DNA of 64,000 nt from an uncultured Candidatus Saccharibacteria bacterium (GCA_964401285.1 CAYNXY010000001.1:3342-67341), one strand, 5' to 3'; numbered from the stretch's first letter, positions 3,001 through 60,529 are shown. A program made the numbers and translations. Notes: generated by a model from the letters alone, not told the origin.

Positions 3001-5736
3001 CAAAGAAAAGGTTTTATATTTGACCTTGTTGTCTTAAATAAAGAAAGTGGGGGGTATAAAAAAGAACTGGAAGAAAGAATAGGGGCTTTAGGCGGAGACA
3101 AAATGTCAGGCGTATGGGGAGAAGAGCGAGGCGGTATTTTTATCCTAGGATCCGATTTTATACCGGAGGAAAACCAAAACCTTCTTGAAGCAATGGCCTC
3201 CGTCGTACTTGAGGGGAACAAGGGGTCCCTAAAAGAACAACTGGAACAAAAAGAAGAAGAGAGCAAAATTCCGCTTTTTTCTCCACATCAAAAGCAAATT
3301 GAGGCAAAAGTAGAATTAAAAGAACTAGTAAATACCGACGAACTAGCTTTTTACAACAACTTCGGCGGGTTCGACGAAGAAAAAGAAGAATACGTCATAA
3401 CACTGCGTCCAGACCAAAAAACTCCTGTTCCCTGGACAAACGTAATATCTAACCCCAATTTCGGCTTTGTTGTTTCCGAGTCGGGTTCTCAATTCACCTT
3501 TTGTGAAAACAGCAGGGATAACCGGCTCACACCCTGGTTTGGAGACCCCGTTCTGGATAATGCTGGCGAAGCGCTATTCGTGAAAGATGAAGAAACAGGA
3601 AAGAGCTGGTCCCCCCTAGCCTGGCCTAAAAGAGATAAAAACCCTTATCTTATTCGACACGGTAAAGGGTATGTGAAATTCAAACACAAATGTGAAGAAA
3701 TAAGTTCAGACCTTACGCTATTTGTCCCCCGCAGAGACCCGGTAAAAATTGTACGCTTTAAAGTTAAAAATACTTCTTCAAAAGAAAGAAAAGTTTCCAT
3801 CTATTATTTCTTGGAATGGGTGTTGGGAGAACTAAGAAGTAAAACTTGGCCCCACATCGTTACAGAAATTGACGAAAAAAGTAAAGCAATAATTGCCCTC
3901 AACCCGTTAAGTGAAAGTTTTTCGGAAAGAAAAGCTTTTCTTTGGGGAGAAAACCCGACAAGCTTAACGGGAGACAGAAAAGAAATTCTCGGCCCGGGAA
4001 GAGGTTGGAGCACCCCGGCAGGCCTGGACAAAGAAACTCTCTCAGGAAAAGTCGGGGCAGGGTTTGACCCAGGAGCGGGGGTTCAAAGACGCCTCAATCT
4101 AAAACCCGATGAGGAAAAAGAAATAGTGTTTCTTTTGGGAGAAGTAAAAAGCAAAAAAGAAATCCAAGCACTGATTGAGAAATACAAAAATCACGACAAT
4201 ATAGAAAACTCGCTGAAAGAAGTGAAGAGCTATTGGGAAAAAACTACCTCAACCCTAGAGGTTGAAACCCCGGATAAGGCATTGAACGTGTTGTCAAGCT
4301 GGCTTCCTTACCAAATATTAAGCTGCAGAGTGTGGGCTAGATCATCTTTTTACCAACCCGGAGGTGCTTACGGTTTCCGCGACCAGCTGCAAGACGCGAT
4401 GGGGCTTGGGATAAACCACCCTGAAATCCTTAAAAAACACATAATCAGAGCGGCAAAAAGACAATACAGAGACGGCGGGGTTCAACATTGGTGGAAACCA
4501 GTGAGCAATTTAGGCCTGAGAAGTTCTTACACTGACGATCCGCTTTGGCTGGTCTACATTGTCTCCTACTATGTTCAGCTCACAGGAGATTACGAGTTTC
4601 TAGATAGAAGTCTCCCATTTTTGGAAAGCACCAAAGAGGGCTACCCCGAAAGCGAAACAATGGAAACTGCCACGCTATCTTCCGATAAAGCAAGCTTATT
4701 TGAACATTGCATGAGAGCAATAGAAAAAACCTTTGACCTTGGAGCACACGGTCTGCCAAAAATGAAAGGGGGTGACTGGAATGACGGAATGAATAAAGTA
4801 GGAGTAGAAGGACAGGGAGAAAGTATTTGGCTGGCTTGGTTTGAAATAAAAGTGTTGGAAGAGTTCTCCGAGGCAGCAAAGAAAAAAGGAGAAAAAGAAG
4901 CTTGGAGAGAACTAAACTCCAAAATAAAGAAACTCAAAAAAGAAGTGGAAAGAACCGGTTGGGACGGAGAATGGTACAGACGAGCTTATTTTGACGATGG
5001 CACACCTTTGGGCTCAAAAGAAAACAGAGAATGTAAGATCACTCTTACCCCTCAGGCCTGGGCGTTTATCTCCGGCGGTAAAGATAAAAAGCGACTCGAA
5101 GCAGCTCAAGTTTCTTGCGAAAAGTACCTGGTAGATGAAAATGAAAAATTAATTAACCTGCTCTGGCCTCCTTTTAAAAACCCCGAGCGCGACCCCGGCT
5201 ACATTAAAAACTATCCACCAGGCGTTAGAGAAAATGGAGCTTGCTACCTGCACGCAGCAATGTTTTATATTTTAGGCCTCATCAATCAAAAGAAAAAAGA
5301 CAGAGCTTGGGAGCTTTTCAGCTGGTTCAACCCAATAAAAAGAAGTTCTACCTCGAAACAAGTTGAAAAATACAAAGTTGAACCCTACATCTTGCCCAGC
5401 GACATTTATGCTTCTCTATCTCCCGGAGCAGGAGGATGGAGTTGGTATACAGGCACCGCTGCTTGGGTCTGGAGAATAACAGCTGAGTTCATATTAGGTT
5501 TAAAGATACGAGGAGAATACTTTATGGTTGAACCCTGCCTACCTTCTTCTTGGCCGGGATACAAAATGACCCTCAGGCATGGTTCTGATACTTACGAGAT
5601 TACAGTTCAAAATTCGAAAGAAGAGGGCAAAGGAAAAAGAATAAAACTGGACAATAAAAAAATAGAAGGCGAAAGAATCGCCTTCCAAAACGACGGCAAA
5701 CGGCATAAAGTAGAAGTTTTCTTAAAAAAAGAGTAA
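1..5736 (+). CDS. Cyclic beta-1,2-glucan synthase (NdvB/ChvB/Cgs)-like giant protein with tandem GH94 glycoside-phosphorylase modules; 5'-partial. The ORF track starts at 70, but the frame is open to nt 1.
   Basis: The same frame as the 70..5736 ORF has no stop from nt 1, so the gene continues upstream of the window. Motifs match the NdvB post-glycosyltransferase region: WRFFDDLV...NFLPLDTFQ...TSPTNIGLYLLS and SESRLASFVAIAKGDLP. There are two GH94 N-terminal beta-sandwich signatures (GKYQVMIDESGSGFS; PWTNVISNPNFGFVVSESGSQFTFCENSRDNRLTPW). The GH94 catalytic (alpha/alpha)6 motif FYQPGGAYGFRDQLQDAMG is present. A TM helix lies at the start of the visible part. Confidence 0.7.
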   Translation, partial: LQWTTASSAEKLNENSFSTLFWFMKSGIILGIICSVAALSRRRGMVPVVFSSMWIFSPVFAWWASRPRQEKTKLRRKDKIKLRRLARKNWRFFDDLVGAETNFLPLDTFQNTPQKKIAWKTSPTNIGLYLLSAISAHNLGYISTLKFLNLLEKTLFALEKLQKYKGHLYNWYNIKNLKILAPHYISSVDSGNLCASFIVVKNMLEELMESPFSTNKILPGLKDEFQLLKEKIEKIENRKKTYKKHLERLSSSINKTSDSSWQEYLRNVKQEIISFRSFLTREMETADTEGARKIKEIYYWLEKLSSHTDDFYYERNGFTKDPKKATESAARRCENLSQRFDKLTEEMDFSFLYNPDKKLFSLGFRVDKNELDNIYYNFLGSESRLASFVAIAKGDLPAKHWFGMERTLTKLKNKKAVISWGGSLYEYLLPNLFLKNYPETLLHETIEVAVKKQIQYGERKGIPWGLSESAYNAQNKEGFYHYKAFGVPDLGVKFSLGKEPVVSPYSTMLALPRFPKKAIKNLKTLKKEGLEGEYGFYDAIDYTPQRMPAGKRGVVIPTYYAHHKGASLMALTASLNDNPFSKYLFRDSRIKSVEHFLEEKTPRETPTLELHKFKKSRKPRITEERFGFSTTYITEPCQENPSSYFLSNGKYQVMIDESGSGFSKFQDFFVTRFRKDPTRRESGTFFYIKDLDTKDIWSSTFQPTKKPPKNYKILQHENKVEFTRKDGGIETRTEIVVAPRENAEIRRVTLTNQSSKEKELEITSYGKIVINGMGQDLTHPVFSDMLVSSEFLSEKNALLFCRPEADQDTPLWATHIITEQEEPIEFSADRKSFIGRGRTLENPKALEQKLSGSSGYTLDPIMSLRTTVKLAPGEKKSLGFTTALSFRKEEVLSLADKYSKLSTVERTMRLGENYGQLEMRQLTFSPEESLIFQKLASKLLWPGEKLRNTEKIRKNKKKKEDLWGYSISGDHPILLITTSSLNDLDYLPLIRQTIRAQKFLQRKGFIFDLVVLNKESGGYKKELEERIGALGGDKMSGVWGEERGGIFILGSDFIPEENQNLLEAMASVVLEGNKGSLKEQLEQKEEESKIPLFSPHQKQIEAKVELKELVNTDELAFYNNFGGFDEEKEEYVITLRPDQKTPVPWTNVISNPNFGFVVSESGSQFTFCENSRDNRLTPWFGDPVLDNAGEALFVKDEETGKSWSPLAWPKRDKNPYLIRHGKGYVKFKHKCEEISSDLTLFVPRRDPVKIVRFKVKNTSSKERKVSIYYFLEWVLGELRSKTWPHIVTEIDEKSKAIIALNPLSESFSERKAFLWGENPTSLTGDRKEILGPGRGWSTPAGLDKETLSGKVGAGFDPGAGVQRRLNLKPDEEKEIVFLLGEVKSKKEIQALIEKYKNHDNIENSLKEVKSYWEKTTSTLEVETPDKALNVLSSWLPYQILSCRVWARSSFYQPGGAYGFRDQLQDAMGLGINHPEILKKHIIRAAKRQYRDGGVQHWWKPVSNLGLRSSYTDDPLWLVYIVSYYVQLTGDYEFLDRSLPFLESTKEGYPESETMETATLSSDKASLFEHCMRAIEKTFDLGAHGLPKMKGGDWNDGMNKVGVEGQGESIWLAWFEIKVLEEFSEAAKKKGEKEAWRELNSKIKKLKKEVERTGWDGEWYRRAYFDDGTPLGSKENRECKITLTPQAWAFISGGKDKKRLEAAQVSCEKYLVDENEKLINLLWPPFKNPERDPGYIKNYPPGVRENGACYLHAAMFYILGLINQKKKDRAWELFSWFNPIKRSSTSKQVEKYKVEPYILPSDIYASLSPGAGGWSWYTGTAAWVWRITAEFILGLKIRGEYFMVEPCLPSSWPGYKMTLRHGSDTYEITVQNSKEEGKGKRIKLDNKKIEGERIAFQNDGKRHKVEVFLKKE

Positions 5737-50217: not shown

Positions 50218-51507
50218 TTACTCTTTTTTCCTTAAAAACGCCGGGCTTTCCCAGCGCTTTTCTCTCTTCAAAAGCTCTTTTTCAATTTCTTTAAGGTCTT
50301 TTTGTACTTCAAGTGCGTTTTTTCTTACTTTTTCCTTATCCTCCTCTTCTTCCTTTTTTTCTTTCTGATTTTTCTTCTGGGCCACGCTTACTTTTTTCTT
50401 CTCCGGCTCTTTCTTCTCCGGCTCTTTCTTCTCCGACATTCTTTTTTTTTCTTCTTCTTTTTGCCCAACACCACCTTTTATCTCACCTTGGCTGGGTTCT
50501 AAAAACAATCCCTCCATCCAACATCCGACTGACAAGAGGGTAACATCAAGCTGGTTTTTACCTCGAACCAGGTCCACTCCAAAGATAACTCGAGAGTCTT
50601 CTTCTTTAGTTTGTTTAGCAATCGTCTCCGAAATCTCTGCTACCTCAGAAAGCGAAAGATTTTCCGGAGCACTGATATTAAAAAGTATTCTGTCCGCGCT
50701 TGAGATATCGTAAGGGTAAAGCGGATTTTCAAGTAAGTTCCTAAGCACAGCTTTCACTCTACCTTTTCCCCCAGCCTGAGCCCTCGTAAGGTAAGAAAGC
50801 GAGCGTTCTCCTCGTAAAATAGTTTCCAAGTCGGCAAAATCAATATTTATAAGGCCGGGGCTGTGAATCATTTCTATCAACCCTTCCAAACTGTTCCCTA
50901 TTGAGTAATTTATGCTTGAAAGAGCTTTCTTGATGGGCACCTTCTCATCCACAACCTGAAACACTCTTTGATTAGGGATAACCGCTAAAGCGTGAAGTAA
51001 AAATTGAAGTTTGCTCAAAGACATCTTAGCGGTTTTTAACTTTTTCTCTCTCTCAAACTCAAAGGGTAAAGTAAAAAATCCATAACTTAGCATTTCTAAA
51101 TCTTGAGCGATCTCAGCAAAAACAGGCATAGCACCAGAACCGGTACCACCACCAAGGCAAGAAACAAAAATACACAAATCAGCCCCTTCCAGGGCTTCTT
51201 TTATTTTCTCACTGTTTTCTTCTGCTGCTTTTCGACCCATCTCCACATCCATCCCCGTTCCCATTCCTTGAGTAGTTTCTTCTCCGAAACGAATGGTCTC
51301 AATTCTTTTTTTACGACTAAACTGAGAAAGAGCCGACTGGTCCGTGTCAGCGATATAAAAATCAGTTCGTTTATACTTAGCTGCAATGTCCCTGATAATG
51401 GAACCTGCACCTCCTCCCACGCCAACAACCTTAACCTTGATTTTATGAATAGGGAAATCCTCCTTCTTCTGTTTTTTTGCTTTTTCTTTCTTTTTATTTT
51501 TAGCCAT
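50218..51507 (-). CDS. ftsZ: Cell division protein FtsZ with a long Lys/Glu-rich C-terminal extension
   Basis: GVGGGAGSIIRDI, tubulin signature SCLGGGTGSGAMPVFAEIA and a C-terminal low-complexity EKKEPEKKEPEKKK. Confidence 0.9.
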   Translation of the reverse strand: MAKNKKKEKAKKQKKEDFPIHKIKVKVVGVGGGAGSIIRDIAAKYKRTDFYIADTDQSALSQFSRKKRIETIRFGEETTQGMGTGMDVEMGRKAAEENSEKIKEALEGADLCIFVSCLGGGTGSGAMPVFAEIAQDLEMLSYGFFTLPFEFEREKKLKTAKMSLSKLQFLLHALAVIPNQRVFQVVDEKVPIKKALSSINYSIGNSLEGLIEMIHSPGLINIDFADLETILRGERSLSYLTRAQAGGKGRVKAVLRNLLENPLYPYDISSADRILFNISAPENLSLSEVAEISETIAKQTKEEDSRVIFGVDLVRGKNQLDVTLLSVGCWMEGLFLEPSQGEIKGGVGQKEEEKKRMSEKKEPEKKEPEKKKVSVAQKKNQKEKKEEEEDKEKVRKNALEVQKDLKEIEKELLKREKRWESPAFLRKKE

Positions 51508-51985
51508 ATTTTTTAATAATAAGGGTTTTTAAAAAAGTTTGCAATAAATATTCTTCTAAAACCAAAGTAACCGGTCCACTATTCACAAGCTCGACTTCCA
51601 TGTAAGCACCGAATTCCCCCGTTTCCACGTTCAGCCCGGTCCTTTCAAGCTCTTCTACAAAGTTCTCGTACACCCTCTGGGCTTTTTCCGGTTGAGCCGC
51701 CTTGTTAAAACTCGGTCTCCGTCCCTTGCTTGTATCAGCGTGAAGAGTAAACTGAGGCACTACTAGAACCTCCCCGTCTGTCTCCAGAAGAGAAAGATTC
51801 ATCTTCCCTTCTCCATCCTCCATAATACGCAACTGGCTGATTTGTTCGGCCATCGATTTTGCCTGAGAACTCCCGTCTTTTTGTCCTATACCTACTAAAA
51901 CTAAAAACCCCTCCTTTATTTTAGCCCGGGGATCTTTTTTAATATAAACGCACGCCCTTTTAACCCTTTGGATAACTGCCTTCAT
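51500..51985 (-). CDS. dtd: D-aminoacyl-tRNA deacylase
   Basis: MKAVIQRV...FLVLVGIGQKDG...SQFTLHADTSKGRRPSF...GEFGAYMEVELVNSGPVT. Confidence 0.85.
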   Translation of the reverse strand: MKAVIQRVKRACVYIKKDPRAKIKEGFLVLVGIGQKDGSSQAKSMAEQISQLRIMEDGEGKMNLSLLETDGEVLVVPQFTLHADTSKGRRPSFNKAAQPEKAQRVYENFVEELERTGLNVETGEFGAYMEVELVNSGPVTLVLEEYLLQTFLKTLIIKKYG

Positions 51986-51987: not shown

Positions 51988-52065
51988 TTTGTCCTACCTT
52001 CTAAAATTTTTGTCCTACCCCTGACAATTTTTCCTTAGTTTTGTCAGTAGGCCAGTTAGGACAAA
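51988..52065. promoter_or_regulatory. Repeat cluster upstream of dtd: two direct TTTGCCTACC copies 21 bp apart, an inverted copy, and a nested CTGACAA/TTGTCAG inverted repeat
   Basis: TTTGTCCTACC at 51988-51998 and 52009-52019, and an inverted TTAGGACAAA at 52056-52065. CTGACAA (52021-27) and TTGTCAG (52041-47) lie between them. The cluster sits between the response-regulator stop and the dtd start. Confidence 0.5.
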
Positions 52066-52436
52066 TATTTTTCAACCTCCTCTACTAAAGCGTTGGGTGT
52101 GAAATTAGCTTTCATAAGATAGGCCTCAACACCCAATTCATTGGCCCTCACTTTTTCATCAGCTGCATCGTAATTAGAAAGGATCACCACCGGTATATCT
52201 TTAAGTTTCTCATCCCCTCTCACCTTTTGCAGAAAACTAAGCCCGTTTTCTTCAGGCAAGAGAATATCAAGAAGAATTATATCCGGAACCCTCTCCTGCA
52301 CATTCTCCCAGGCCTCTTCAGCGGTAAGAACGTCTTCCACCTCGAAGCCGGCTCTTTGGAACACACGACGATACATTTCCACCATCCTTTTTTCGTCTTC
52401 AACAAGAAGTATCTTTTTTTCGGAGCCCTCAACCAT
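52056..52436 (-). CDS. Stand-alone response-regulator receiver domain (CheY-like)
   Basis: ILLVEDEKRMVEMY...DIILLDILLPEENGLSFLQKVR...IPVVILSNY...K; 126 aa with no output domain. Confidence 0.85.
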   Translation of the reverse strand: MVEGSEKKILLVEDEKRMVEMYRRVFQRAGFEVEDVLTAEEAWENVQERVPDIILLDILLPEENGLSFLQKVRGDEKLKDIPVVILSNYDAADEKVRANELGVEAYLMKANFTPNALVEEVEKYLS

Positions 52437-52444: not shown

Positions 52445-54079
52445 TTAATTATTTTTATCTTCTCCTCCGTTTTCCGTCTTTTTTTCTGCTTTTTTAGGGA
52501 TTTCCACATAAAAAGTGCTTCCTTTTCCTTTGCCTTTACTTTTCGCCCATATCTCCCCTCCATGAAGCTCTACGTATTTCTTATTAAGATACAAACCAAG
52601 CCCGGTCCCTTCCACAAAACGGTTCACCCCGGCTTCACCTCTTATAAAACGAGCGAATATTTTCGTAAGCTCTTCCTCGCTCATCCCTTCCCCTGTGTCT
52701 TGTACTTTCAACCTAACCTTGGAATCAACGGATTCTAAGGTTATAGTTATGCTACCCTCATTAGTATATCTTATAGCATTGTCTAGTAAGTTGAATACAA
52801 CTTGCCTCATCTTAACCGGGTCCACCCTTAGTTTATCAAAATCTTTCGGTTTACGCCACTTAATCTTTAAACCCTTCTTCTCTGCTCTACGGGATAACTC
52901 GTTTACAACACTTTCCACCACCTCACCCATATCCGTTTCCTCAAGCTCAAGTTCAAGCCGCCCTAAATCTGCCTTGGAAATATTTAAAAGATCGTTAACC
53001 ACATTCACCAATCTCTCGTTTGATTCAAATATATCTTTAAGCGGAGGGCGAGCGTCCTCGGGGACCTCCCCGTATTCACCTTCAAGTATCATCGAAGAAA
53101 GCCCCTTAACAATGGTAATAGGCGTTCGGAGCTGATGGGAAGCCATAGCCACAAACTCACTTTTTGCTTCATCTATTCTTTTAAGTTCATCATATGCCTC
53201 CCTGAGATTATCCGCCATCTCTTCCATCTCCTCTCGCCGCTTTATCTCCTTTAATACACTCTTAATGAGGGTCCATCCGAGGTAAATGAAGGCAATGAGA
53301 ATCAAACCTTTAAATATAACCTTGCTTGCTCCCTGCGCCAACAATAACTCTATAAAAAGAACTAAACTGACTAATCCAACAAGTAATTCAGTAGCTATAA
53401 CCCTGATATTAAACAAATGGTGCTTGGTAATAGCGTAGGCTATAAAAATAACCATAGCTAAGGTCCACATCGGTCCAATTTGATAATATCTAAAATTTCC
53501 GACCGTTGGCAATAATAGATTAAATACGGTCGCGAAAAAAACAGTAACAAAAAAACCTACTAGTATATACTTAATCTGTCTTTTTAGGTTTCTTTTTGCC
53601 TTTTTATACTTGGCAACTAATAACCAAAATCCTAGAAAAAAATAGAAAGAAATATAAAAGAAATATAACGGATACAAAGAACCAAAAGAAATTATTCGCT
53701 CTTTGTTAAAAACCTTAAACCCAGTAATAATATAGTCTGCATGTATTAAGTAAACAAAAAGAGAAAACGGTATCCAGAGAATAAAACTAATCCACTTTGG
53801 GAAGAAAGGCTTATTTTCAGGAAAATAAAGACAAAAATATAAGAAAAACAAAGCTGAAAGCGCTGCGGCTGAATAAGCCACCTTACTCAATAACAAGGCT
53901 GTTTCTGGAATATTAGTATAATAATAAACAAATAAGGGAGCAGACCACAATATTACACTTCCTAAGAGTAATAGATAAAAGAGGATTGATTTCGTAATCT
54001 TAGTACTAAAATATATAAAAACGACCAAAGCTAAATTCACTAAAATAGTCACTAATAAAATAGCAGAAGTTATAGCCAT
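52445..54079 (-). CDS. Sensor histidine kinase with a large N-terminal multi-pass membrane sensor domain
   Basis: About 8 TM helices, a coiled linker, H-box ASHQLRTPITIVKG and HATPase_c N/G1/G2 boxes (DNAIRYT...QDTGEGM...GTGLGLY). Confidence 0.85.
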   Translation of the reverse strand: MAITSAILLVTILVNLALVVFIYFSTKITKSILFYLLLLGSVILWSAPLFVYYYTNIPETALLLSKVAYSAAALSALFFLYFCLYFPENKPFFPKWISFILWIPFSLFVYLIHADYIITGFKVFNKERIISFGSLYPLYFFYISFYFFLGFWLLVAKYKKAKRNLKRQIKYILVGFFVTVFFATVFNLLLPTVGNFRYYQIGPMWTLAMVIFIAYAITKHHLFNIRVIATELLVGLVSLVLFIELLLAQGASKVIFKGLILIAFIYLGWTLIKSVLKEIKRREEMEEMADNLREAYDELKRIDEAKSEFVAMASHQLRTPITIVKGLSSMILEGEYGEVPEDARPPLKDIFESNERLVNVVNDLLNISKADLGRLELELEETDMGEVVESVVNELSRRAEKKGLKIKWRKPKDFDKLRVDPVKMRQVVFNLLDNAIRYTNEGSITITLESVDSKVRLKVQDTGEGMSEEELTKIFARFIRGEAGVNRFVEGTGLGLYLNKKYVELHGGEIWAKSKGKGKGSTFYVEIPKKAEKKTENGGEDKNN

Positions 54080-54867
54080 AACAATATTTTTGCTTTAATT
54101 GCCTTCAAAGACCTTCTCAAAGAATAAATAAACTTAACAACTATTGCGTTTTTAAATAAAAAAATATTTTCTCCTAATTTTTTGAACAAAAGCTTATTAT
54201 TAAGAATAGAATCGACATAATTCTCCACTTCTTCTCTTAGATAATATATTAAATAAACTGGTCTGTTCGGGTCGTTGAAAAAATTAGAAAGAGGATCGTG
54301 CGATTTTTCTGGATCATAAATTAACTCTTTCTTATTAATAACATGTACAGGAAGACCTAGTTCTAGTATGCTTTTTAGAGCCTTTCCCTTAATCGTACCA
54401 TAACCAGCTTTAATATTGTTTTCTCTAGAAAAATCTAGCATAGAAGAAATCAATCCTAATAAAATCAAATGCCTTGGTAAATACACCTTTTCAGAATATT
54501 TAATAGAAATTAGCCTCCCAATCTCACAGACTTCATCAGAAGACATTTTTTTAATCTCTGAAGGTTCTTTAAACTCATAATACTCTGTTCTTGTGGGCGG
54601 AGGGGAAATTGTTATTATGCGGGCGCTACCAATTATTTTTCCGTCAATCTCAGCAATAAAGTAATGGCACTTATTGATTCTATCGTATTCGTCAATCTCT
54701 CTCTCCTCTAAACTTTCGTCGTCTGGTATATATGCTTCTTTTTTGACATAAACCTTATATCTGAGCTCATACATCTTGTCCAGCTCTTCTTCACTGTTAG
54801 GCATTCCAAATAATATAGTTTTCAATTCCCCACGGAGATTGATTTTAATGCTCTTATACGCCTTCAT
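54070..54867 (-). CDS. GNAT-fold N-acyltransferase of the autoinducer-synthase-like (LuxI / FeeM N-acyl amino acid synthase) type
   Basis: MYELRYKVYVKKEAYIPDDESLEEREIDEYDRINKCHYFIAEIDGKIIGSARI matches the LuxI/FeeM pattern R-x2-VF-x(n)-E-x-D-x-YD-x(n)-G-x3-G-x-RL. The 265-aa length is in range. Confidence 0.45.
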   Translation of the reverse strand: MKAYKSIKINLRGELKTILFGMPNSEEELDKMYELRYKVYVKKEAYIPDDESLEEREIDEYDRINKCHYFIAEIDGKIIGSARIITISPPPTRTEYYEFKEPSEIKKMSSDEVCEIGRLISIKYSEKVYLPRHLILLGLISSMLDFSRENNIKAGYGTIKGKALKSILELGLPVHVINKKELIYDPEKSHDPLSNFFNDPNRPVYLIYYLREEVENYVDSILNNKLLFKKLGENIFLFKNAIVVKFIYSLRRSLKAIKAKILLWL

Positions 54868-54870
54868 GAT

Positions 54871-55569
54871 TCACAATTTTCTCCCTGAATTCAAAATCGA
54901 CTGATCAGCGTAAACTGAAAAGTCGTTAGATACATCAGAAAAGCCTACTTCTTGTAACAAAACTTTTTGTTCTCCTTTTTCAAAAAAATAGTACTCATTT
55001 TCCTGAGTGATAAAGTGGTTGTAGTAAAGAATCTTTATAGCTGGTTTGATAAGAAGAGTTACTTTAACTAAACTTTTTAAAAACCCTTGCTCTTTAAAAT
55101 TAAGCTTTAACCCTTCTAAATATATTTTAAAGGGACTCCAGCCCTTTTTAGGGTTAGCTATCACTACCTTCCCGTTCGGTTTTAACACTCTTATGAATTC
55201 TTTTAAAACTTCTTTGTGTTTTTTTTTCGGAATCGCGTATAAGACATTGTTACAGGTAATTTTATCAAAGTGCTCATTTGGAAAAGGTAACTTTTCTCTT
55301 AGGTCAGAAAGGACTAACTCAAGCACTGGATTTTTACTCCTACAAATATCGAGAGCTGCTTGTGAATTATCGAGCCCCACTACCTCTGCTCCTCTTTCTT
55401 CCAGCTTCAAAGCTAAATTACAAGTACCACAACCAGCTTCTAAAACCTTATCTCCCTCTTTAACGTCCAACTCATCACAAATAGTATTTAAAAGTTTTTG
55501 ATAAGGAATCAAAAGATTTAACACGTCATAAACTTCAAAATATTTTCTCCAGAAATCTGCACTAAGCAT
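54871..55569 (-). CDS. Class I SAM-dependent methyltransferase
   Basis: Motif I VLEAGCGTCNLALKL, motif post-I VVGLDNS and motif II ITCNNVLYAI. Confidence 0.8.
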   Translation of the reverse strand: MLSADFWRKYFEVYDVLNLLIPYQKLLNTICDELDVKEGDKVLEAGCGTCNLALKLEERGAEVVGLDNSQAALDICRSKNPVLELVLSDLREKLPFPNEHFDKITCNNVLYAIPKKKHKEVLKEFIRVLKPNGKVVIANPKKGWSPFKIYLEGLKLNFKEQGFLKSLVKVTLLIKPAIKILYYNHFITQENEYYFFEKGEQKVLLQEVGFSDVSNDFSVYADQSILNSGRKL

Positions 55570-55715
55570 TTTAACAATTTCTTCTATTTTACCTCAATTT
55601 CCTTAAAAATCAAAAAGAGGACGGGAACTCCCACTCCCCTTCAAGGTGTTAAAATTTAATACAACAAAACATTTAATTTTTCCCTTTTTTAGGGCTAAAC
55701 ATTACCTTGCTATCT

Positions 55716-56069
55716 TTAAAAATACGGTAAAAAGATTATGAGACCAATGATTAAGGCGCCTAACGCGGCAACTAAAACCCCCGCGGCCATTGTGTCTTTT
55801 ACAACTCGAACTTGAGGGCGGAACTCCGGCTCAACTATATCAAGCATTTTTTCAGCGGTGGTATTAATAAGCTCGAGAGATAAAACCAAAAAAACCATAA
55901 TTAAAATAATAGTTTTTTCCAGAGCGGTAATACCAAAATAAAACATTAAAAAGGTCACAAATAAAGCTGTTAGCAACTGAATGCGAAAACTCTGCTCCTC
56001 GTAAAAAGCGTATTTTAAACCGCTAAAAGCGTAGCGCAAACTCTGGACAAATTCTTGAAAAGAAAACAT
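55716..56069 (-). CDS. dgkA: Diacylglycerol kinase / undecaprenol kinase (prokaryotic DagK family)
   Basis: 117 aa with 3 TM helices and the conserved ELINTTAEK (cf. ELLNTAIE). Confidence 0.8.
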   Translation of the reverse strand: MFSFQEFVQSLRYAFSGLKYAFYEEQSFRIQLLTALFVTFLMFYFGITALEKTIILIMVFLVLSLELINTTAEKMLDIVEPEFRPQVRVVKDTMAAGVLVAALGALIIGLIIFLPYF

Positions 56070-56225: not shown

Positions 56226-57383
56226 ATGAGGGAAAAACATTTAAAGATTAAAAATTGGAGCAAGGGGTTTGCGGGGTGCCTGCATTTTCCTTTTCCCCAT
56301 TTTCTTACTCGATTTTTGGAAAAAACAAAAATAATTGAAAAATGCTTTGTTTTTTTTGGCCTGCTCAGACCCGTGAAAGATTTCAAGCTTTGCGAGGTTC
56401 CTCCCAGAACGGCTGTTTTAATAAAGGAGGGGAGAAAAAAAGGAATAACTTTTAGGGCCCTTAAAAGCCCTGCGGGGTTTACCAGTTATTTTTTGATGAA
56501 AATCGACGAAAAATCTTTTTTAATCGAAGGGCTGCCAAGAGCGGAATTTTTAAGCGGGCCCGCCTACGAGCTGGTAGACGACAAATACAAGGTTAAAAAA
56601 ACGTTAGAAGAAAAAGGGCTGCCCACGCTAAAAGGAGAGTCATTCTGGTGGTTTCAAAAAAAGAAGGCCCTTAACTTCAGCTCTCGCCTAGGGTTTCCCT
56701 TGGTGGTCAAGCCGAGAACCGGCTCTCTGGGAAAAAAGGTTTTTACCAATTTAAAAAACCAAGAGGAGGTAGACGCGGCCATAGAAGAAGCAAGCAAGTT
56801 TTCCCCTGCTTTTTTAATAGAAAAGTTTTTACCTGACGTTTCAGATTTTAGGGTAACAATAGTGGATTTTGAAAAAGTTTTTTGTTTTAAAAGAATTACC
56901 GCCCAAGTAATTGGAGACGGAACTCATACTATTTCCCAACTTATCCAAAAAGAAAACCAGAACCCAAAACGAGGCAAAACCCGTACCATTAAAACCCCTT
57001 TTTACAAGTTAGTAACAAACAAGGAAACAGAAAAGATATTAAAAGAGCAAGGTTTCTCTTTTTCAGATGTCCCCCAAAAAGAAGAAATCGTAAAGCTACA
57101 AAAAGACCCTTTCCTAAGGTTGGGAGGAACCACCACAAACAAAGTAGAAGTAGCACCTGAAAACATTCAACTTTTTAAAAAAATAGCCAGAACTTTTGAA
57201 GCAAGGGTAGTGGGAATTGATTTTTTAGCCGAAGACATCTCGGTTCCCTGGCAAAAACAAACTTGTGCTGTTTTAGAGCTCAACAGCTTGCCGGGGATCA
57301 TCGGCCACCATTTCCCCTCTTCCGGCTCCCCCCAAAATGTTGCCGGCGCGATAATCGAGATGGTTTTAAAATACTACAAGTAA
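56226..57383 (+). CDS. Stand-alone cyanophycin-synthetase-like ATP-grasp ligase (CphA N-terminal ATP-grasp module without the Mur-ligase domain)
   Basis: Collinear with the CphA ATP-grasp region: VIGDGTHTISQLIQKENQNPKRG; LRLGGTTTNKVEVAPEN...ARVVGIDFLAEDISVPW...AVLELNSLPGI; SGSPQNVAGAIIEMV. The protein ends there. Confidence 0.65.
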   Translation: MREKHLKIKNWSKGFAGCLHFPFPHFLTRFLEKTKIIEKCFVFFGLLRPVKDFKLCEVPPRTAVLIKEGRKKGITFRALKSPAGFTSYFLMKIDEKSFLIEGLPRAEFLSGPAYELVDDKYKVKKTLEEKGLPTLKGESFWWFQKKKALNFSSRLGFPLVVKPRTGSLGKKVFTNLKNQEEVDAAIEEASKFSPAFLIEKFLPDVSDFRVTIVDFEKVFCFKRITAQVIGDGTHTISQLIQKENQNPKRGKTRTIKTPFYKLVTNKETEKILKEQGFSFSDVPQKEEIVKLQKDPFLRLGGTTTNKVEVAPENIQLFKKIARTFEARVVGIDFLAEDISVPWQKQTCAVLELNSLPGIIGHHFPSSGSPQNVAGAIIEMVLKYYK

Positions 57384-57460: not shown

Positions 57461-59185
57461 TTATTCTTTAACAGAACCCGATTCTTTTTCTTTTAAAACG
57501 TAATGCAAGGTTTTACCCAGGTGGGATTTAGGGATTTCGGAGATTTTTTCAATCTTTTTAGGAAGTTTATAGTAAGTAAGGTGTTTTCGACAGAAATCAA
57601 GAAGTTCCTCTTCCTCTACCCCATTTTTGCTCACCACAAAGGCCTTGGGCGCCTCACCTGTTTTTTCATCCTCTACTTTTATGACCGCTGCTTCTTTTAC
57701 TGCAGGGTGCTTGGACAAAACCTCTTCTATTTCCCGAGGCCAAACCTTCTGACCACTTATATTTATCATATCATCCAACCGTCCCTGGATGTAAAAATAG
57801 CCGTCTGCATCCATTAAAGCAATATCCTTGGTATGAAACCAACCGTCTTCATCAAACATTTCTTTTGTCAACCCCGGCTCATTCCAATACCCTCTAAAAA
57901 GTTGAGGGCCTTTAATCATAAGTTCTCCTGAATGTAGAGCCGGCAGTTCTTCTCCGCTTTCGGGATGTACGATTTTAACTTTTGTCCCCGGCAGAGGAAT
58001 ACCGATGCTTCCTACCTTCTGCTTCCCTAAAGGCGGGTTCATGTGAGTAATGGGAGAGCTTTCAGTTAAACCGTAGGCCTCTATTATCGGCTCCCCCGTT
58101 ATTTTTTTTACCTTTCTTAAAACTTCAGCCGGGCAGGAAGCAGCACCGCTTCCACAGAAACGAATGGAAGAAATGTCAAAACATTCCGGGTCCTTTTCAA
58201 TAAGCCCCATAATAGCGGAGAAAATAGCAGGCACCCCTGCCACAATAGTAATCCCATACTCTTCTATTGCTTCACAGGCCGGTTTAGTATGAAATTCGGG
58301 GAAAAGAACCACAGTCCACCCTTCCCGCATAGAATAGTTAAGCACAAAAGTCAGCCCGTAAATATGAAAAAAGGGCAAGGCGCCGAACTGCACTTCCTTG
58401 CCCGGCCACGTTGCCTTACCTATGAGAGCACTAATCTGGTCAAGGTTGGCAGTAACATTAAAATGGGTAAGTGGAACACCCTTGGGATCCCCCGTAGTAC
58501 CACTGGTATACATCAGAAGAGCCAAATCGTTTTTTGCTTCAATAGAAACCTTCTCGGGCTCCGAAGAAGAGTTCTCAATAAGCTCTTCAAAATCCAAGGC
58601 GCCGTTGTTTTTCAGTTTAGCTCTTTTAGTCGCCTGAAATACTCTTTTAGGCAAATTCTTAATGCTATTTAAAACTCCAAGGTGAGAAGGCAGATAAGCA
58701 CCAATATCCGTTAAAATAATATTATCAATTTCCAGTTTGTCTTGAATCTCAGCCACGCGACCCGAAAATATTTTAAGAGCCACAATCGTGCGGGAGCCGG
58801 AATCTTTCATGACTTGTAATAATTCTTTTTTAGTATAAAGGGGGTTAAGAGGTGAAACCACCGCTCCCACTTTTAAAGCCCCGTAAAAAGCAATAACGAA
58901 AGACGGGCAGTTGGGAAGAAAAAGAGTTACTATATCTCCTTTTTTAACACCCATCTTTTGCAGAGCAGAAGCAAAACGATCCGACTTTCCTTCAAGCTCC
59001 TTAAAAGAATGAGTTTGTCCGTAAAATACGAGGGCTTCTTTATCCGGATAATCCTTAGCCGAGGCGGACAAAACCTCCTGGAGTGGATAAGATTCAGGTT
59101 CCAATTCTCTCCCTGCCCCTTCAGGGTAGTTTTCCAACCACACCCCATCCATATCCTTTGCCTTTTTGTTTAAAAAATCATTCAT
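57461..59185 (-). CDS. Acyl-CoA ligase (AMP-binding / long-chain fatty-acid--CoA ligase family). The real start is possibly the internal Met at about 59152.
   Basis: AMP-binding motif LMYTSGTTGDPKGV, hinge/A8 GYGLTE and a C-terminal lid; 563-574 aa. Confidence 0.85.
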   Translation of the reverse strand: MNDFLNKKAKDMDGVWLENYPEGAGRELEPESYPLQEVLSASAKDYPDKEALVFYGQTHSFKELEGKSDRFASALQKMGVKKGDIVTLFLPNCPSFVIAFYGALKVGAVVSPLNPLYTKKELLQVMKDSGSRTIVALKIFSGRVAEIQDKLEIDNIILTDIGAYLPSHLGVLNSIKNLPKRVFQATKRAKLKNNGALDFEELIENSSSEPEKVSIEAKNDLALLMYTSGTTGDPKGVPLTHFNVTANLDQISALIGKATWPGKEVQFGALPFFHIYGLTFVLNYSMREGWTVVLFPEFHTKPACEAIEEYGITIVAGVPAIFSAIMGLIEKDPECFDISSIRFCGSGAASCPAEVLRKVKKITGEPIIEAYGLTESSPITHMNPPLGKQKVGSIGIPLPGTKVKIVHPESGEELPALHSGELMIKGPQLFRGYWNEPGLTKEMFDEDGWFHTKDIALMDADGYFYIQGRLDDMINISGQKVWPREIEEVLSKHPAVKEAAVIKVEDEKTGEAPKAFVVSKNGVEEEELLDFCRKHLTYYKLPKKIEKISEIPKSHLGKTLHYVLKEKESGSVKE

Positions 59186-59383: not shown

Positions 59384-60529
59384 TCAAGAAGTGCTAAAAA
59401 TCTCATCCAGGAAGAATTCCTGCCATTCCCCATTAAAAGTAACAGGAACCTTGTTGCCTGCGGGAAAAAGGATTTTTCTCTCTTGAGGAATATAAATAAA
59501 CCCCTGCACGGTGCCATTATTGGAAACAGAACCGCGGCGCGGACTGAACGTTTTCTCATGGATTTTCATTATTTTTATCGCCTCCTCAGTCGAACTCACT
59601 CCGTCTTTTATTTCTTTTTTAATGTTTTCCCCCCTTTTAAGAGTAGCATTATATTCTTTATGATTTTCATAGTTTTTCACGTACCATTTGTTCTTCATCT
59701 CCTCAGAAACAAAGTGGTTGGTGTTAACCAAAACCCCGTTCATTCTTTCCACAAAATAGTCACCCTGACACATCTCCACAAGAAAAGTATTTTGCCTCTC
59801 GCCGTCTGAGACGAGACAGGCAAAGGGACGGATGGAACTTACTTTTTTCAATGCTTTAAGCCAAATGCGGGAGTTTGAAGCAAGCTTAGTGAGCCCCCAA
59901 GCAATAGAAACAATGGGTGTGTTGTCAAAATCAAACCCCTTGTGGGCCCCGCCTCCGTCATTAACCGCAAAAAGAGTTCCTTTTTTTGTGATAACGGAAT
60001 CTGTTATGAGAAGACCCGGCAAAGAAGGAGCAATAAATTTATTTTGCAACTCATTATTATCATAAACAGCAATAAATCTTCTTTTACTTATAAACTCAGT
60101 TACTTTTTTTTCAAAATAAAGGTCAGTTGTTTTTCCGATTAAAACATTTTCCGTTTTTTTAAACGGTGCAGCAAAAAAGGAACACCCTACAAAAGTGTTC
60201 CTGAAGGCAATGGCTATCTCGTAAATTGAATTAAAAAGCAATACCCATTCCAAAGCTACCCCGCTCCCCTCAGAAATCCCTTTCATTTCTTCTATCTCGT
60301 CAGTAGTGTACTCTTTTTTAAGATTATTCGTCTTTCTAAACACTATCTTCATAAAAAACTTGGCAGAAGCCCACCCCAGTTTGTTCTGAACATAGTGAGT
60401 GATAAAATCCGTTTCGTCCTCTATCTCCTCTCTTAAAAAAGACCCATGAGCAAAACCCCGCTTATACGGATCTTTTTCTCTTAAAAACAAAAAATTTACG
60501 CCTCTTATTTTTTTAAAATCTGATTCCAT
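59384..60529 (-). CDS. Ntn-hydrolase of the peptidase C45 / acyl-CoA:6-aminopenicillanic-acid acyltransferase-like family
   Basis: 381 aa with a candidate autoproteolytic nucleophile in VGCSFFAAP (Gly-Cys-Ser) followed by LIGKTTD. The length and pattern fit the C45/AAT family but are not diagnostic. Confidence 0.35.
   Translation of the reverse strand: MESDFKKIRGVNFLFLREKDPYKRGFAHGSFLREEIEDETDFITHYVQNKLGWASAKFFMKIVFRKTNNLKKEYTTDEIEEMKGISEGSGVALEWVLLFNSIYEIAIAFRNTFVGCSFFAAPFKKTENVLIGKTTDLYFEKKVTEFISKRRFIAVYDNNELQNKFIAPSLPGLLITDSVITKKGTLFAVNDGGGAHKGFDFDNTPIVSIAWGLTKLASNSRIWLKALKKVSSIRPFACLVSDGERQNTFLVEMCQGDYFVERMNGVLVNTNHFVSEEMKNKWYVKNYENHKEYNATLKRGENIKKEIKDGVSSTEEAIKIMKIHEKTFSPRRGSVSNNGTVQGFIYIPQERKILFPAGNKVPVTFNGEWQEFFLDEIFSTS

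What the first reader, a model, noticed from the sequence alone, without database searches (positions are those of the whole stretch)
54070..54867. LuxI/FeeM-like autoinducer-synthase-fold GNAT directly downstream of a sensor kinase
The motif MYELRYKVYVKK-EAY...EEREIDEYDRINKCHYFIAEIDGKIIGSARI reproduces the spacing of the conserved R/F/E/D/R residues of acyl-homoserine-lactone and N-acyl-amino-acid synthases. The gene overlaps the HK gene stop by 10 nt, so it is co-transcribed with HK and RR, the classical synthase-next-to-sensor arrangement of quorum-sensing loci. An acyl-signal synthase of this kind would be unexpected in this type of organism.
Basis: partly seen in the sequence, partly recalled or inferred. 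Interest (0 to 1): 0.65.

Follow-up and report, generated by a model that had tools for sequence, protein, structure and literature searches.

The report
Acyl-amide synthase wired to membrane sensor
A tiny candidate-phyla-radiation bacterium carries a LuxI/FeeM-type fatty-acyl–amino-acid synthase in a conserved operon with a methyltransferase and a membrane-embedded sensor kinase. It looks like a lipid-signal maker next to its receptor, but this pairing in such bacteria was already noted in a 2020 survey and its chemistry is untested.

Summary
The ORF is real: 54070-54867, minus strand, 265 aa. It belongs to the LuxI/FeeM/OlsB acyltransferase superfamily. Pfam scores exceed the cut-offs for FeeM (36 bits), Acetyltransf_5 (30.8) and Autoind_synth (26.2). 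The AlphaFold model has pLDDT 95.9, and its ten best PDB matches are all AHL synthases.

The gene lies upstream of the kinase, and its stop overlaps the kinase start by 10 nt.

This is a distinct family of about 250 aa, with 123 representative clusters at E<1e-30. Its nearest named relatives are N-acyl amino acid synthases (TIGR03694), not AHL synthases.

- In 16 of 16 non-redundant loci a 7TM histidine kinase follows directly.
- The methyltransferase is adjacent in 13 of those loci, and fusions occur in both domain orders.
- A PlsC-like acyltransferase is adjacent in six loci.

Best reading: the two enzymes make a methylated N-acyl amino acid that the intramembrane-sensing kinase detects. A membrane aminolipid pathway is the main rival.

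Bernard et al. 2020 (PMC7567580) already reported LuxI homologues next to sensor kinases in CPR genomes. Interest is moderate.

The parts
54070..54867 (-). LuxI/FeeM-superfamily fatty-acyl N-acyltransferase (N-acyl amino acid synthase-like), 265 aa. It has a GNAT core (about residues 25-175), an N-terminal beta-hairpin (2-22) and a C-terminal sub-domain ending in a cationic amphipathic helix (241-264).
   Evidence: ORF. Pfam FeeM, Acetyltransf_5 and Autoind_synth all exceed their cut-offs. 109 of 110 family members hit FeeM. AF2 pLDDT is 95.9. Foldseek ranks 1-10 are AHL synthases. Conserved residues are R36, Y40, Y46, D59, D62, R83, E115 and R118.
54871..55569 (-). Class I SAM-dependent methyltransferase, 232 aa, the constant partner of the synthase. 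Its stop codon lies 3 nt before the synthase ATG.
   Evidence: Methyltransf_25 and Methyltransf_11 at E about 1e-20. It is adjacent in 13 of 16 non-redundant loci. Fusions to the synthase occur in both orders: P0020 and P0046 versus P0059. Orthologues are 39-59% identical. The AF2 model has pLDDT 81.7 and its PDB neighbours are generic class I methyltransferases.
52445..54079 (-). Histidine kinase, 544 aa, with an N-terminal multi-pass membrane domain (HisKA_7TM; about 8-9 hydrophobic segments, residues 1-276) joined directly through a coiled coil to HisKA and HATPase_c. It has no periplasmic, PAS, HAMP or GAF domain.
   Evidence: Pfam HisKA_7TM 46 bits (cut-off 28.6), HisKA and HATPase_c. The start codon overlaps the synthase stop by 10 nt. 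The membrane domain aligns along its whole length across 13 loci, with a conserved NL(I/L)LP..G.F.Y.W(L/I)GP...YAI.K..LF.I motif.
52056..52436 (-). Single-domain response regulator (receiver only, 126 aa, no output domain), starting 8 nt after the kinase stop.
   Evidence: Pfam Response_reg covers residues 9-121. NCBIfam matches cover only the receiver part of PhoB/OmpR-type regulators. A receiver-only gene also follows the kinase in L002, L007 and L015.
55570..55715 (-). Intergenic region between dgkA and the methyltransferase gene, with a terminator-like hairpin followed by two sigma-70-like promoter matches. It is the probable 5' boundary of the transcription unit.
   Evidence: The consensus scan finds a hairpin at 55638-55623 with a T-run, and promoter-like sites at 55613-55586 and 55597-55568. 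These are pattern matches only.
57461..59185 (-). Long-chain fatty-acid--CoA ligase-like enzyme (context). It is a possible supplier of the acyl-thioester donor.
   Evidence: AMP-binding E 1e-98. The best NCBIfam hits are long-chain-fatty-acid--CoA ligases, 466 bits and below the equivalog cut-off. An orthologue lies upstream of the module in L013. It is not conserved elsewhere.

Best explanation
The gene encodes a fatty-acyl N-acyltransferase of the LuxI/FeeM/OlsB superfamily. [quoted passage not shown]

Inferred mechanism:
1. The enzyme takes a fatty acyl thioester, probably acyl-CoA from a FadD-type ligase because these organisms generally lack fatty-acid synthesis.
2. It uses the conserved Glu115 as general base to acylate the alpha-amino group of an amino acid.
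3. The co-translated SAM methyltransferase, which is fused to the synthase in some genomes, then methylates the product. The product would be a neutral, membrane-partitioning methylated N-acyl amino acid, for example a methyl ester.
4. The kinase encoded immediately downstream has only a membrane-embedded 7TM sensor. It is the invariant genomic partner and is proposed to perceive this lipid within the membrane.
5. The kinase passes the signal to a receiver-only response regulator. This would be a self-produced signal/receptor circuit analogous to LuxM/LuxN, CqsA/CqsS or PhcB/PhcS.

Shown here: fold, family placement, conserved catalytic residues, operon structure, conserved synteny and gene fusions. 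Inferred: substrates, site of methylation, and that the kinase senses the product.
For: Family and fold:
- Pfam FeeM, Acetyltransf_5 and Autoind_synth all score above their cut-offs.
- Of 110 family members, 109 hit FeeM, 87 hit Acetyltransf_5 and 80 hit Autoind_synth.
- The next-nearest sequences in a 1.84-billion-protein search are bona fide TIGR03694 N-acyl amino acid synthases.
- The AF2 model has pLDDT 95.9, and AHL synthases are its best PDB neighbours.

Catalytic residue:
- E115 is conserved in 108 of 110 members. By position in the conserved E-x-S/G-R motif it corresponds to LasI Glu101 (LasI numbering from the alignment and the LasI sequence as I recall it).
- I infer, without having aligned FeeM, that it is also the counterpart of FeeM Glu95 / Nas354 Glu103. 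That residue was shown to be essential in PMC4897644.

Coupling to the methyltransferase:
- The two genes are 3 nt apart.
- The methyltransferase is adjacent in 13 of 16 non-redundant loci.
- Fusions occur in both domain orders.

Coupling to the kinase:
- The genes overlap by 10 nt.
- The kinase is directly adjacent in 16 of 16 non-redundant loci that have different flanking genes.
- The kinase has no sensor domain other than the membrane bundle, and that bundle is orthologous across loci.

Precedents:
- PhcB methyltransferase makes a fatty-acid methyl-ester signal that the kinase PhcS senses (PMC8578825).
Against: - No chemistry is shown. The amine acceptor, the acyl donor and the methylation site are all unknown.
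- The methyltransferase's sequence and structural neighbours are generic class I enzymes, and phospholipid or phosphoethanolamine N-methyltransferases are among them. N-methylation of a lipid head group is therefore equally possible.
- A PlsC-like O-acyltransferase sits next to the module in six loci. That fits a two-step membrane-aminolipid pathway.
- The response regulator has no output domain and is adjacent in only 4 loci, so no autoinduction loop can be traced.
- Co-transcription rests on spacing and consensus scans only.
- The acyl-chain tunnel could not be inspected.
Confidence: 0.45

Rival explanations
1. Membrane aminolipid pathway. The enzyme acts like OlsB/GlsB and N-acylates an amino acid to a lyso-aminolipid. 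A PlsC-like enzyme adds a second acyl chain (OlsA-like), and the methyltransferase N-methylates the head group (OlsG-like). The 7TM kinase monitors membrane state (DesK-like) rather than a diffusible signal.
For: - Pfam Acetyltransf_5, the OlsB family, scores above its cut-off.
- A PlsC-like acyltransferase lies immediately upstream in L001, L002, L003, L020, L024 and L025.
- The neighbours in the window are lipid genes: dgkA and a FadD-like ligase.
- The methyltransferase weakly resembles phospholipid N-methyltransferases (PDB 8ys9 and NCBIfam PmtA), and OlsG is related to those (PMC12971839).
- The synthase has a cationic amphipathic C-terminal helix.
- The two-step OlsB/OlsA logic is described in PMC11631085.
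Against: - The OlsB equivalog models score 17.7 bits against cut-offs of 320-350.
- The PlsC-like gene is absent from the window's 64 kb and from most loci, whereas the kinase is invariant.
- The PlsC-like proteins score best as generic AGPAT or Aas-type lysophospholipid acyltransferases. Only one has a weak OlsA hit, at 29 bits against a cut-off of 300.
- Acyloxyacyl lipids need 3-hydroxyacyl donors from fatty-acid synthesis, which CPR bacteria are generally thought to lack (general knowledge, not tested here).
- The family is sporadic rather than core: 123 clusters at E<1e-30.
Confidence: 0.25
2. A true AHL synthase. The enzyme uses SAM as acyl acceptor and lactonises it to an acyl-homoserine lactone, and the 7TM kinase is a LuxN-like AHL receptor. 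This is the reading taken by Bernard et al. 2020.
For: - PDB fold-search ranks 1-10 are all AHL synthases: BjaI, LasI, MesI, RpaI, TofI and EsaI.
- The family profile hits seven AHL synthases at E 7e-8 to 5e-5, but not FeeM itself.
- Pfam Autoind_synth scores just above its cut-off.
- The LasI SAM-site residues Arg23, Phe27 and Trp33 (PMC4655403) correspond to conserved R36, Y40 and Y46.
- JGI labels two members 'N-acyl-L-homoserine lactone synthetase'.
Against: - The same residues are invariant in TIGR03694 N-acyl amino acid synthases, so they do not indicate SAM use.
- Those synthases are much closer in sequence (E about 1e-20; 21-27% identity) than AHL synthases (12-16% identity).
- AHL-synthase equivalog models score 16-17 bits against cut-offs of 250-292.
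- The Trp33 position is Tyr in 98 of 110 members and never Trp.
- A dedicated, sometimes fused, methyltransferase has no role in AHL synthesis.
- The PDB holds no TIGR03694-type structure, so the PDB ranking is biased toward LuxI enzymes.
Confidence: 0.15
3. An ordinary small-molecule or protein N-acetyltransferase (a generic GNAT, as some databases label it) that merely happens to be next to a two-component system.
For: One homologue is annotated 'GNAT family N-acetyltransferase'. Generic GNATs appear in the fold search from rank 11 on.
Against: - Generic GNAT Pfam models score below their cut-offs: Acetyltransf_1 18 bits vs 20.7, and Acetyltransf_9 11.9 vs 25.
- The specific long-chain acyltransferase families score above theirs.
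- The canonical GNAT acetyl-CoA pyrophosphate motif, Q/R-x-x-G-x-G/A (general knowledge), is not seen after beta4 in the sequence (alignment).
- 16 of 16 loci show synteny with the kinase, and fusions to the methyltransferase occur.
Confidence: 0.05

Closest known systems
[quoted passage not shown]
   Same: This is the best Pfam family (109 of 110 members) and the nearest sequence neighbours. The invariant R, Y, D, D, R, P, E and R residues are shared, including the glutamate I infer to be catalytic. The size and GNAT core are the same.
   Different: - The score is far below the TIGR03694 cut-off (39.8 vs 112 bits), and FeeM's own sequence is not matched by the family profile.
- There is no exosortase/PEP-CTERM context.
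- The family has its own N-terminal hairpin and a conserved C-terminal sub-domain (IY.P...L..FFN...PV.PIYF plus a terminal helix).
- It is linked to a methyltransferase and a 7TM kinase, although one TIGR03694 member (L005) also has a related methyltransferase nearby.
LuxI-type acyl-homoserine-lactone synthases (Pfam PF00765; LasI, EsaI, TofI, BjaI, RpaI, MesI)
   Same: These are the best structural matches in the PDB and the best solved-structure sequence matches. Counterparts of LasI R23, F27, D44, D47, R70, E101 and R104 are conserved.
   Different: Identity is only 12-16%. Trp33 is replaced by Tyr throughout. Equivalog models are not met. There is no adjacent LuxR-type partner. Extra terminal elements and a methyltransferase partner are present. 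SAM use as a substrate is unproven.
Synthase-plus-membrane-kinase quorum-sensing pairs: LuxM/LuxN, AinS/AinR, CqsA/CqsS (LqsA/LqsS), and PhcB/PhcS/PhcR(Q) of Ralstonia
   Same: In these systems a gene for a hydrophobic-signal synthase is encoded beside a multi-pass membrane histidine kinase that lacks a large extracytoplasmic domain. The Phc system also uses a SAM methyltransferase to make a methyl-ester signal sensed by a kinase (PMC8578825). Bernard et al. report that some CPR kinases next to LuxI homologues hit their CqsS N-terminal HMM.
   Different: No homology between the synthases was demonstrated here. LuxM/AinS and CqsA belong to other enzyme families (general knowledge). The kinase sensor here is Pfam HisKA_7TM, and I could not test its relation to CqsS, LuxN or PhcS. 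The regulator is receiver-only.
OlsB/OlsA(/OlsG) ornithine-lipid and related aminolipid pathways (GlsB/GlsA, GluB)
   Same: The superfamily is the same (Acetyltransf_5, PF13444). The logic is N-acyltransferase plus PlsC-type O-acyltransferase (PMC11631085) plus a methyltransferase that modifies the head group (PMC12971839). A PlsC-like gene is adjacent in six related loci.
   Different: OlsB and OlsA equivalog models are not met. There is no PlsC-like gene in this window. The kinase, not the O-acyltransferase, is the constant partner.
LuxI homologues adjacent to sensory kinases in CPR genomes (Bernard et al. 2020, mSystems, PMC7567580)
   Same: The observation matches: LuxI-like genes in CPR phyla (9 by BLAST, 36 by HMM), 18 of them next to a putative sensory kinase, with the gene one position upstream on the same strand and the aromatic Trp35 replaced by Phe or Tyr.
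   Different: That survey interprets them as AHL synthases. It does not mention the methyltransferase partner or fusions, the closer kinship to N-acyl amino acid synthases, or the 7TM nature of the sensor. I could not verify that this exact genome is in their set.

Membership tests
LuxI-type AHL synthase | Match to Pfam Autoind_synth (PF00765) at or above the gathering score | tested here: met
   26.2 bits vs cut-off 24, covering residues 25-175. 80 of 110 family members match at E<=1e-3. The margin is small.
LuxI-type AHL synthase | Match to curated AHL-synthase equivalog models (NCBIfam TraI NF052393 / PRK13834) | tested here: not met
   17.3 and 16.1 bits vs cut-offs of 250 and 292.
LuxI-type AHL synthase | Conserved N-terminal SAM-site and electrostatic-cluster residues (LasI R23, F27, W33, D44, D47, R70) and E101/R104 | tested here: inconclusive
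   R36, Y40, D59, D62, R83, E115 and R118 are conserved in 106-110 of 110 members. The W33 position is Tyr (98 of 110) and never Trp. The same residues are invariant in TIGR03694 N-acyl amino acid synthases, so they do not discriminate between the families.
LuxI-type AHL synthase | AHL-synthase fold with a V-cleft and an acyl-chain tunnel | tested here: inconclusive
LuxI-type AHL synthase | Uses SAM as acyl acceptor and releases MTA and an acyl-HSL | not testable with these tools
   This needs an enzyme assay or a biosensor.
[quoted passage not shown] | Match to Pfam FeeM (PF21926) at or above the gathering score | tested here: met
   36 bits vs 27. 109 of 110 family members match.
[quoted passage not shown] | Catalytic glutamate (FeeM Glu95 / Nas354 Glu103) | tested here: inconclusive
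   E115 is conserved in 108 of 110 members and is invariant in the alignment with TIGR03694 members. I infer it corresponds to FeeM Glu95 / Nas354 Glu103 from its position in the E-x-S/G-R motif; FeeM itself was not aligned here. The role of that residue is from PMC4897644.
PEP-CTERM/exosortase-associated acyltransferase (TIGR03694) | Score at or above the curated cut-off (111.95 bits) | tested here: not met
   39.8 bits. It is a sister family, not a member. True members appear only at E about 1e-20 in the profile search.
PEP-CTERM/exosortase-associated acyltransferase (TIGR03694) | Located in an exosortase/PEP-CTERM gene neighbourhood | tested here: not met
   The neighbours within about 5 kb are a methyltransferase, the kinase and regulator, Dtd, FtsZ, DgkA, an ATP-grasp enzyme and a FadD-like ligase. 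None is an exosortase.
OlsB-type aminolipid N-acyltransferase | Match to OlsB equivalog models | tested here: not met
   NF052555 scores 17.7 bits vs cut-off 320. Only the broad Pfam Acetyltransf_5 is met (30.8 vs 22.4).
OlsB-type aminolipid N-acyltransferase | Paired OlsA-type (PlsC-family) O-acyltransferase | tested here: inconclusive
   There is none in the 64-kb window. One is present next to the module in six related loci, but those proteins score best as AGPAT or Aas-type enzymes, with OlsA at 29 bits vs 300 in one case.
Synthase/receptor-kinase signalling pair (LuxM/LuxN-, CqsA/CqsS-, PhcB/PhcS-like; a functional analogy, not a homology family) | The synthase gene is adjacent to and co-oriented with a multi-pass membrane histidine kinase, and the pairing is conserved across genomes | tested here: met
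   The genes overlap by 10 nt in the window. The pairing holds in 16 of 16 non-redundant loci. The kinase has 8-9 TM segments and no other sensor domain.
Synthase/receptor-kinase signalling pair (LuxM/LuxN-, CqsA/CqsS-, PhcB/PhcS-like; a functional analogy, not a homology family) | The kinase responds to the synthase's product | not testable with these tools
   This needs a reconstituted kinase assay or reporter genetics.

The most novel reading that the evidence does not exclude
[quoted passage not shown] These would be neutral, AHL-like molecules that act as a dedicated cell-cell or symbiont-host signal, read by a new class of 7TM intramembrane-sensing kinase in ultra-small CPR bacteria. This would be the first acyl-amide autoinducer system outside the LuxI/LuxR and LuxM/LuxN paradigms. 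[quoted passage not shown]
Probability: 0.25. Interest if true: 0.8.

Novelty: new variant of a known kind. Interest (0 to 1): 0.5.

Why it matters
CPR/Patescibacteria are ultra-small bacteria with reduced genomes, and most are thought to live attached to hosts. How they sense partners is largely unknown. A compact module of 3-4 genes that couples a lipid-amide synthase and a methyltransferase to a membrane-embedded kinase is a concrete, cloneable candidate for such signalling, or for sensing scavenged lipids.

The module is small enough to express in E. coli, so the product can be identified directly. [quoted passage not shown] It would give a ligand for the uncharacterised HisKA_7TM sensor domain as well.

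The basic co-occurrence was already published in silico. The added value here is the re-assignment toward N-acyl amino acid synthases, the methyltransferase coupling, and the strict conservation of the kinase partner.

Tried and rejected
- **Exact-sequence contig look-up** for the window protein found nothing on record.
- **Metagenome locus searches** with the broad alignments A2 and A3 failed for lack of a conserved peptide stretch. The narrower A1 worked.
- **Model coordinates** are not exposed, so no tunnel or pocket analysis was possible.
- **Methyltransferase chemistry** could not be resolved by sequence or by an AF2 model plus Foldseek. The top hits (CysG/BelI, AtmM/RebM, phosphoethanolamine and PE N-methyltransferases, Coq5, CmoA) all fall within a similar E-value range.
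- **Anti-phage defence** was considered and rejected, because PADLOC gave only generic domain hits.
- **Plasmid carriage:** there was no tblastn hit in PLSDB.
- **The kinase N-terminal domain** matched no informative NCBIfam model.
- **Rfam** found only two tRNAs in the window.
- **An ACP-like small ORF** was not found in the window. This is weak negative evidence only.
- **Cluster look-up** gave no organism names. Taxonomy was inferred from RpoB relatives instead.
- **Craig et al. 2011** (PMC3187218) is not held and is cited only through secondary papers.
Full report
**1. The observation**

An ORF of 265 aa runs from 54867 to 54070 on the minus strand. It contains the quoted peptide at residues 32-84.

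On the transcribed strand the local gene order is as follows:

| Gene | Coordinates |
|---|---|
| C45-family acyltransferase/hydrolase | 59384-60529 |
| FadD-like fatty-acid--CoA ligase | 57461-59185 |
| ATP-grasp enzyme (opposite strand) | 56226-57383 |
| DgkA | 55716-56069 |
| Class I SAM methyltransferase | 54871-55569 |
| The target | 54070-54867 |
| Histidine kinase | 52445-54079 |
| Receiver-only response regulator | 52056-52436 |
| Dtd | 51500-51985 |
| FtsZ | 50218-51507 |

The junctions are tight. The methyltransferase stop is 3 nt before the target ATG, with an AGGGAG Shine-Dalgarno-like sequence upstream. The target's TAA overlaps the kinase ATG within ATGGCTATAA, a 10-nt overlap. 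The kinase stop is 8 nt before the regulator start.

The target is upstream of the kinase, not downstream. A terminator-like hairpin and two promoter-like matches lie in the 146-nt gap between dgkA and the methyltransferase gene. This is consistent with a methyltransferase-synthase-kinase-regulator transcription unit, but these are consensus matches only.

**2. The organism**

The window's RpoB is 61-63% identical to proteins named Candidatus Pacebacteria, Nealsonbacteria, Parcubacteria, Minisyncoccales and Patescibacteria group. The window therefore comes from a CPR/Patescibacteria bacterium of the Parcubacteria type.

**3. Family placement**

- **Pfam.** The target scores above the gathering threshold for FeeM (36 bits vs 27), Acetyltransf_5 (30.8 vs 22.4) and Autoind_synth (26.2 vs 24). 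Generic GNAT models score below theirs.
- **NCBIfam.** The best hit is the PEP-CTERM/exosortase-associated acyltransferase TIGR03694, at 39.8 bits and far under its cut-off of 112. OlsB and TraI models score 16-18 bits.
- **Word-indexed search.** A search of 5.8 billion proteins found only five relatives.
- **Profile search.** An exhaustive search of 1.84 billion cluster representatives found 880 hits at E<1e-3. Of these, 123 had E<1e-30 and aligned over nearly the full length of about 250 aa. This is a distinct, sporadic family.
- **Family-wide Pfam.** Of 110 aligned members, 109 hit FeeM, 87 hit Acetyltransf_5 and 80 hit Autoind_synth.
- **Next-nearest sequences.** Below the family proper (E about 1e-20) the hits are true TIGR03694 members. 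[quoted passage not shown] 2011, cited in PMC4897644 and PMC11631085).

**4. Structure**

An AlphaFold2 model built on the 110-sequence alignment is very confident, with mean pLDDT 95.9 and pTM 0.91. It shows three elements:

- an N-terminal beta-hairpin (residues 2-22);
- a GNAT core;
- a C-terminal sub-domain ending in a long helix (241-264) that is cationic and amphipathic.

Foldseek against the PDB places AHL synthases at ranks 1-10: BjaI, LasI, MesI, RpaI, TofI and EsaI. Their E-values run from 2e-8 to 5e-6, and TM-scores normalised to the target are 0.53-0.73. Generic GNATs follow. The family profile also matches seven AHL-synthase sequences in the PDB (E 7e-8 to 5e-5), but not FeeM itself.

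**5. The motif**

I mapped the HMMER alignment with LasI onto family conservation. LasI residue numbers come from that alignment together with the LasI sequence as I recall it.

| Target residue | Conservation (of 110) | LasI counterpart |
|---|---|---|
| R36 | 108 | R23 |
| Y40 | 106 | F27 |
| Y46 | 98 (never Trp) | W33 |
| D59 | 110 | D44 |
| D62 | 110 | D47 |
| R83 | 110 | R70 |
| E115 | 108 | E101 |
| R118 | 108 | R104 |

Arg23, Phe27 and Trp33 are described as the LasI SAM-site residues (PMC4655403). However, an alignment with eight TIGR03694-type synthases shows the same invariant R, Y, D, D, R, P, E and R. The motif is therefore a superfamily signature and cannot separate AHL from N-acyl-amino-acid chemistry.

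[quoted passage not shown] FeeM itself was not aligned here, so that step is an inference.

**6. Genomic context across relatives**

I collected 25 related loci from GTDB genomes, JGI metagenomes and other assemblies. I classified their ORFs with phmmer and Pfam.

- **Kinase.** After collapsing near-identical contigs, 16 loci, counting the window itself, have sequence downstream of the synthase. In all 16 an orthologous HisKA_7TM kinase follows immediately, either directly or after the methyltransferase.
- **Flanks.** The flanking genes differ between loci: ATP synthase genes in L007, chaperonin genes in L024, and Dtd/FtsZ here.
- **Methyltransferase.** It is adjacent in 13 of the 16 loci, on either side of the synthase. 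Fusions occur in both domain orders: P0020 and P0046 are synthase-methyltransferase, and P0059 is methyltransferase-synthase.
- **Response regulator.** A receiver-only regulator follows the kinase in four loci.
- **PlsC-like acyltransferase.** One lies just upstream in six loci. There is none in this window. These proteins score best as generic AGPAT or Aas-type lysophospholipid acyltransferases rather than OlsA.
- **Other variants.** One member is fused to a HisC-like PLP aminotransferase (P0056). A true TIGR03694 gene in an Actinomycetota MAG (L005) also has a related methyltransferase nearby, but no kinase.

**7. The kinase**

Pfam finds HisKA_7TM (46 bits), HisKA and HATPase_c. Hydropathy shows 8-9 membrane segments in residues 1-276. 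A coiled coil leads straight into the phospho-acceptor domain, with no periplasmic, PAS, HAMP or GAF module. L001 alone has an inserted GAF domain.

The membrane domain aligns over its whole length across 13 loci. It has a strongly conserved segment, NL(I/L)LP..G.F.Y.W(L/I)GP...YAI.K..LF.I. Whatever this kinase senses, it must sense it in or at the membrane.

**8. The methyltransferase**

It is a class I SAM enzyme with a family-specific N-terminal FW.KYF.VYD.LN motif and a helical insertion at residues 146-190. Its sequence and structural neighbours are generic. They include phosphoethanolamine and phosphatidylethanolamine N-methyltransferases, UbiE/Coq5, CmoA, CysG/BelI and RebM/AtmM, all at similar scores. 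Whether it performs O-, N- or C-methylation cannot be decided.

**9. Interpretation**

The class of the enzyme is well supported: a long-chain acyl-thioester:amine N-acyltransferase closest to N-acyl amino acid synthases. I put this at about 0.8.

The fusion and tight coupling with a methyltransferase imply a two-step product, a methylated N-acyl amino acid. Methyl esterification would give a neutral, AHL-like molecule. [quoted passage not shown]

The kinase is the invariant partner and senses only in the membrane. I therefore favour a product/receptor relationship, analogous to LuxM/LuxN, CqsA/CqsS or the PhcB methyltransferase with the PhcS kinase (PMC8578825). My overall confidence in this combined model is about 0.45.

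The main rival, at about 0.25, is an OlsB/OlsA/OlsG-like membrane aminolipid pathway whose output, or the membrane state, is monitored by the kinase. The recurrent PlsC-like neighbour, the lipid-gene neighbourhood and the amphipathic helix support it. The failed OlsB/OlsA model tests, the absence of the PlsC-like gene from most loci, and the likely lack of 3-hydroxyacyl donors in CPR bacteria (general knowledge) weaken it.

A genuine AHL synthase remains possible at about 0.15. A generic acetyltransferase is unlikely, at about 0.05.

**10. Prior knowledge and novelty**

Bernard et al. 2020 (mSystems, PMC7567580) surveyed CPR and DPANN genomes and reported the following:

- LuxI homologues in CPR: 9 by BLAST in 5 phyla, and 36 by HMM.
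- 18 of them lie adjacent to a putative sensory kinase, and some of those kinases match their CqsS N-terminal HMM.
- Trp35 is replaced by Phe or Tyr.

The core observation is therefore already in the literature, though only in silico and read as AHL synthesis. That paper does not mention a methyltransferase or FeeM.

What this analysis adds:

1. The family is closer to N-acyl amino acid synthases than to AHL synthases.
2. A methyltransferase is a near-constant and sometimes fused partner.
3. The kinase partner is strictly conserved and is an intramembrane 7TM sensor.
4. A high-confidence structural model is available.

I rate it a new variant of a known kind, of moderate interest (0.5). It is easily testable by heterologous expression.

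Noticed in passing
window 59384-60529 (-): This is a 381-aa protein of the C45 family of autoproteolytic acyltransferases/hydrolases (NCBIfam 124.7 bits vs cut-off 85; no Pfam hit at E<=1e-5). It lies directly upstream of the FadD-like ligase on the same strand. An acyl-CoA-dependent acyltransferase or amidase so close to the acyl-amide module might be related to it, but this was not examined in other loci.
   Followed up: no
window 56226-57383 (+): This is a stand-alone 385-aa ATP-grasp enzyme that matches only the central ATP-grasp part of cyanophycin synthetase (model positions about 206-472; 215 bits vs cut-off 850). It sits between dgkA and the FadD-like gene on the opposite strand. It is not found next to the module in any related locus.
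   Followed up: partly
window 53260-55569: The methyltransferase gene (33.6% GC), the synthase gene (32.0%) and the membrane-domain part of the kinase gene (31.3%) are about 9-10 points below the window average (41.7%). The kinase catalytic part (42.1%) and the regulator (43.3%) are not. Most related contigs are 26-37% GC. This could reflect lateral acquisition or simply amino-acid composition.
   Followed up: partly
L001 (JAACEG010000008.1): The contig is labelled 'Lysobacteraceae bacterium' MAG, but its GC content is only 26% and it carries the CPR-type module. It is probably a mis-binned contig.
   Followed up: partly
L003 8776-9669 (-); L007 2-940 (+); L016 5252-6949 (-); L013 13540-14709 (+): Extra copies of the 7TM domain lie near the module. 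They occur as stand-alone membrane proteins without a kinase core (L003, L007) or as a second 7TM kinase paralogue (L016 divergent, L013 downstream).
   Followed up: partly
protein P0056 (617 aa): This is a family member fused at its C-terminus to a HisC-like PLP-dependent aminotransferase (TIGR01141, 231.7 bits vs cut-off 276.55). In some lineages the amine acceptor may therefore be made or modified by a transaminase or decarboxylase.
   Followed up: no
L005 9965-11713 (Actinomycetota MAG): A bona fide TIGR03694 N-acyl amino acid synthase (133 bits) is followed about 350 nt downstream by a methyltransferase related to the window's (E 3e-21), with no kinase. The synthase-methyltransferase pairing may therefore pre-date the CPR family.
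   Followed up: partly
window 51500-51985 and 50218-51507 (-): The D-aminoacyl-tRNA deacylase gene overlaps the ftsZ start by 8 nt. The FtsZ has a long lysine/glutamate-rich C-terminal tail of about 90 aa.
   Followed up: no
window 70-5736 (+): This is a very large ORF (1888 aa) at the start of the window. It was not analysed.
   Followed up: no
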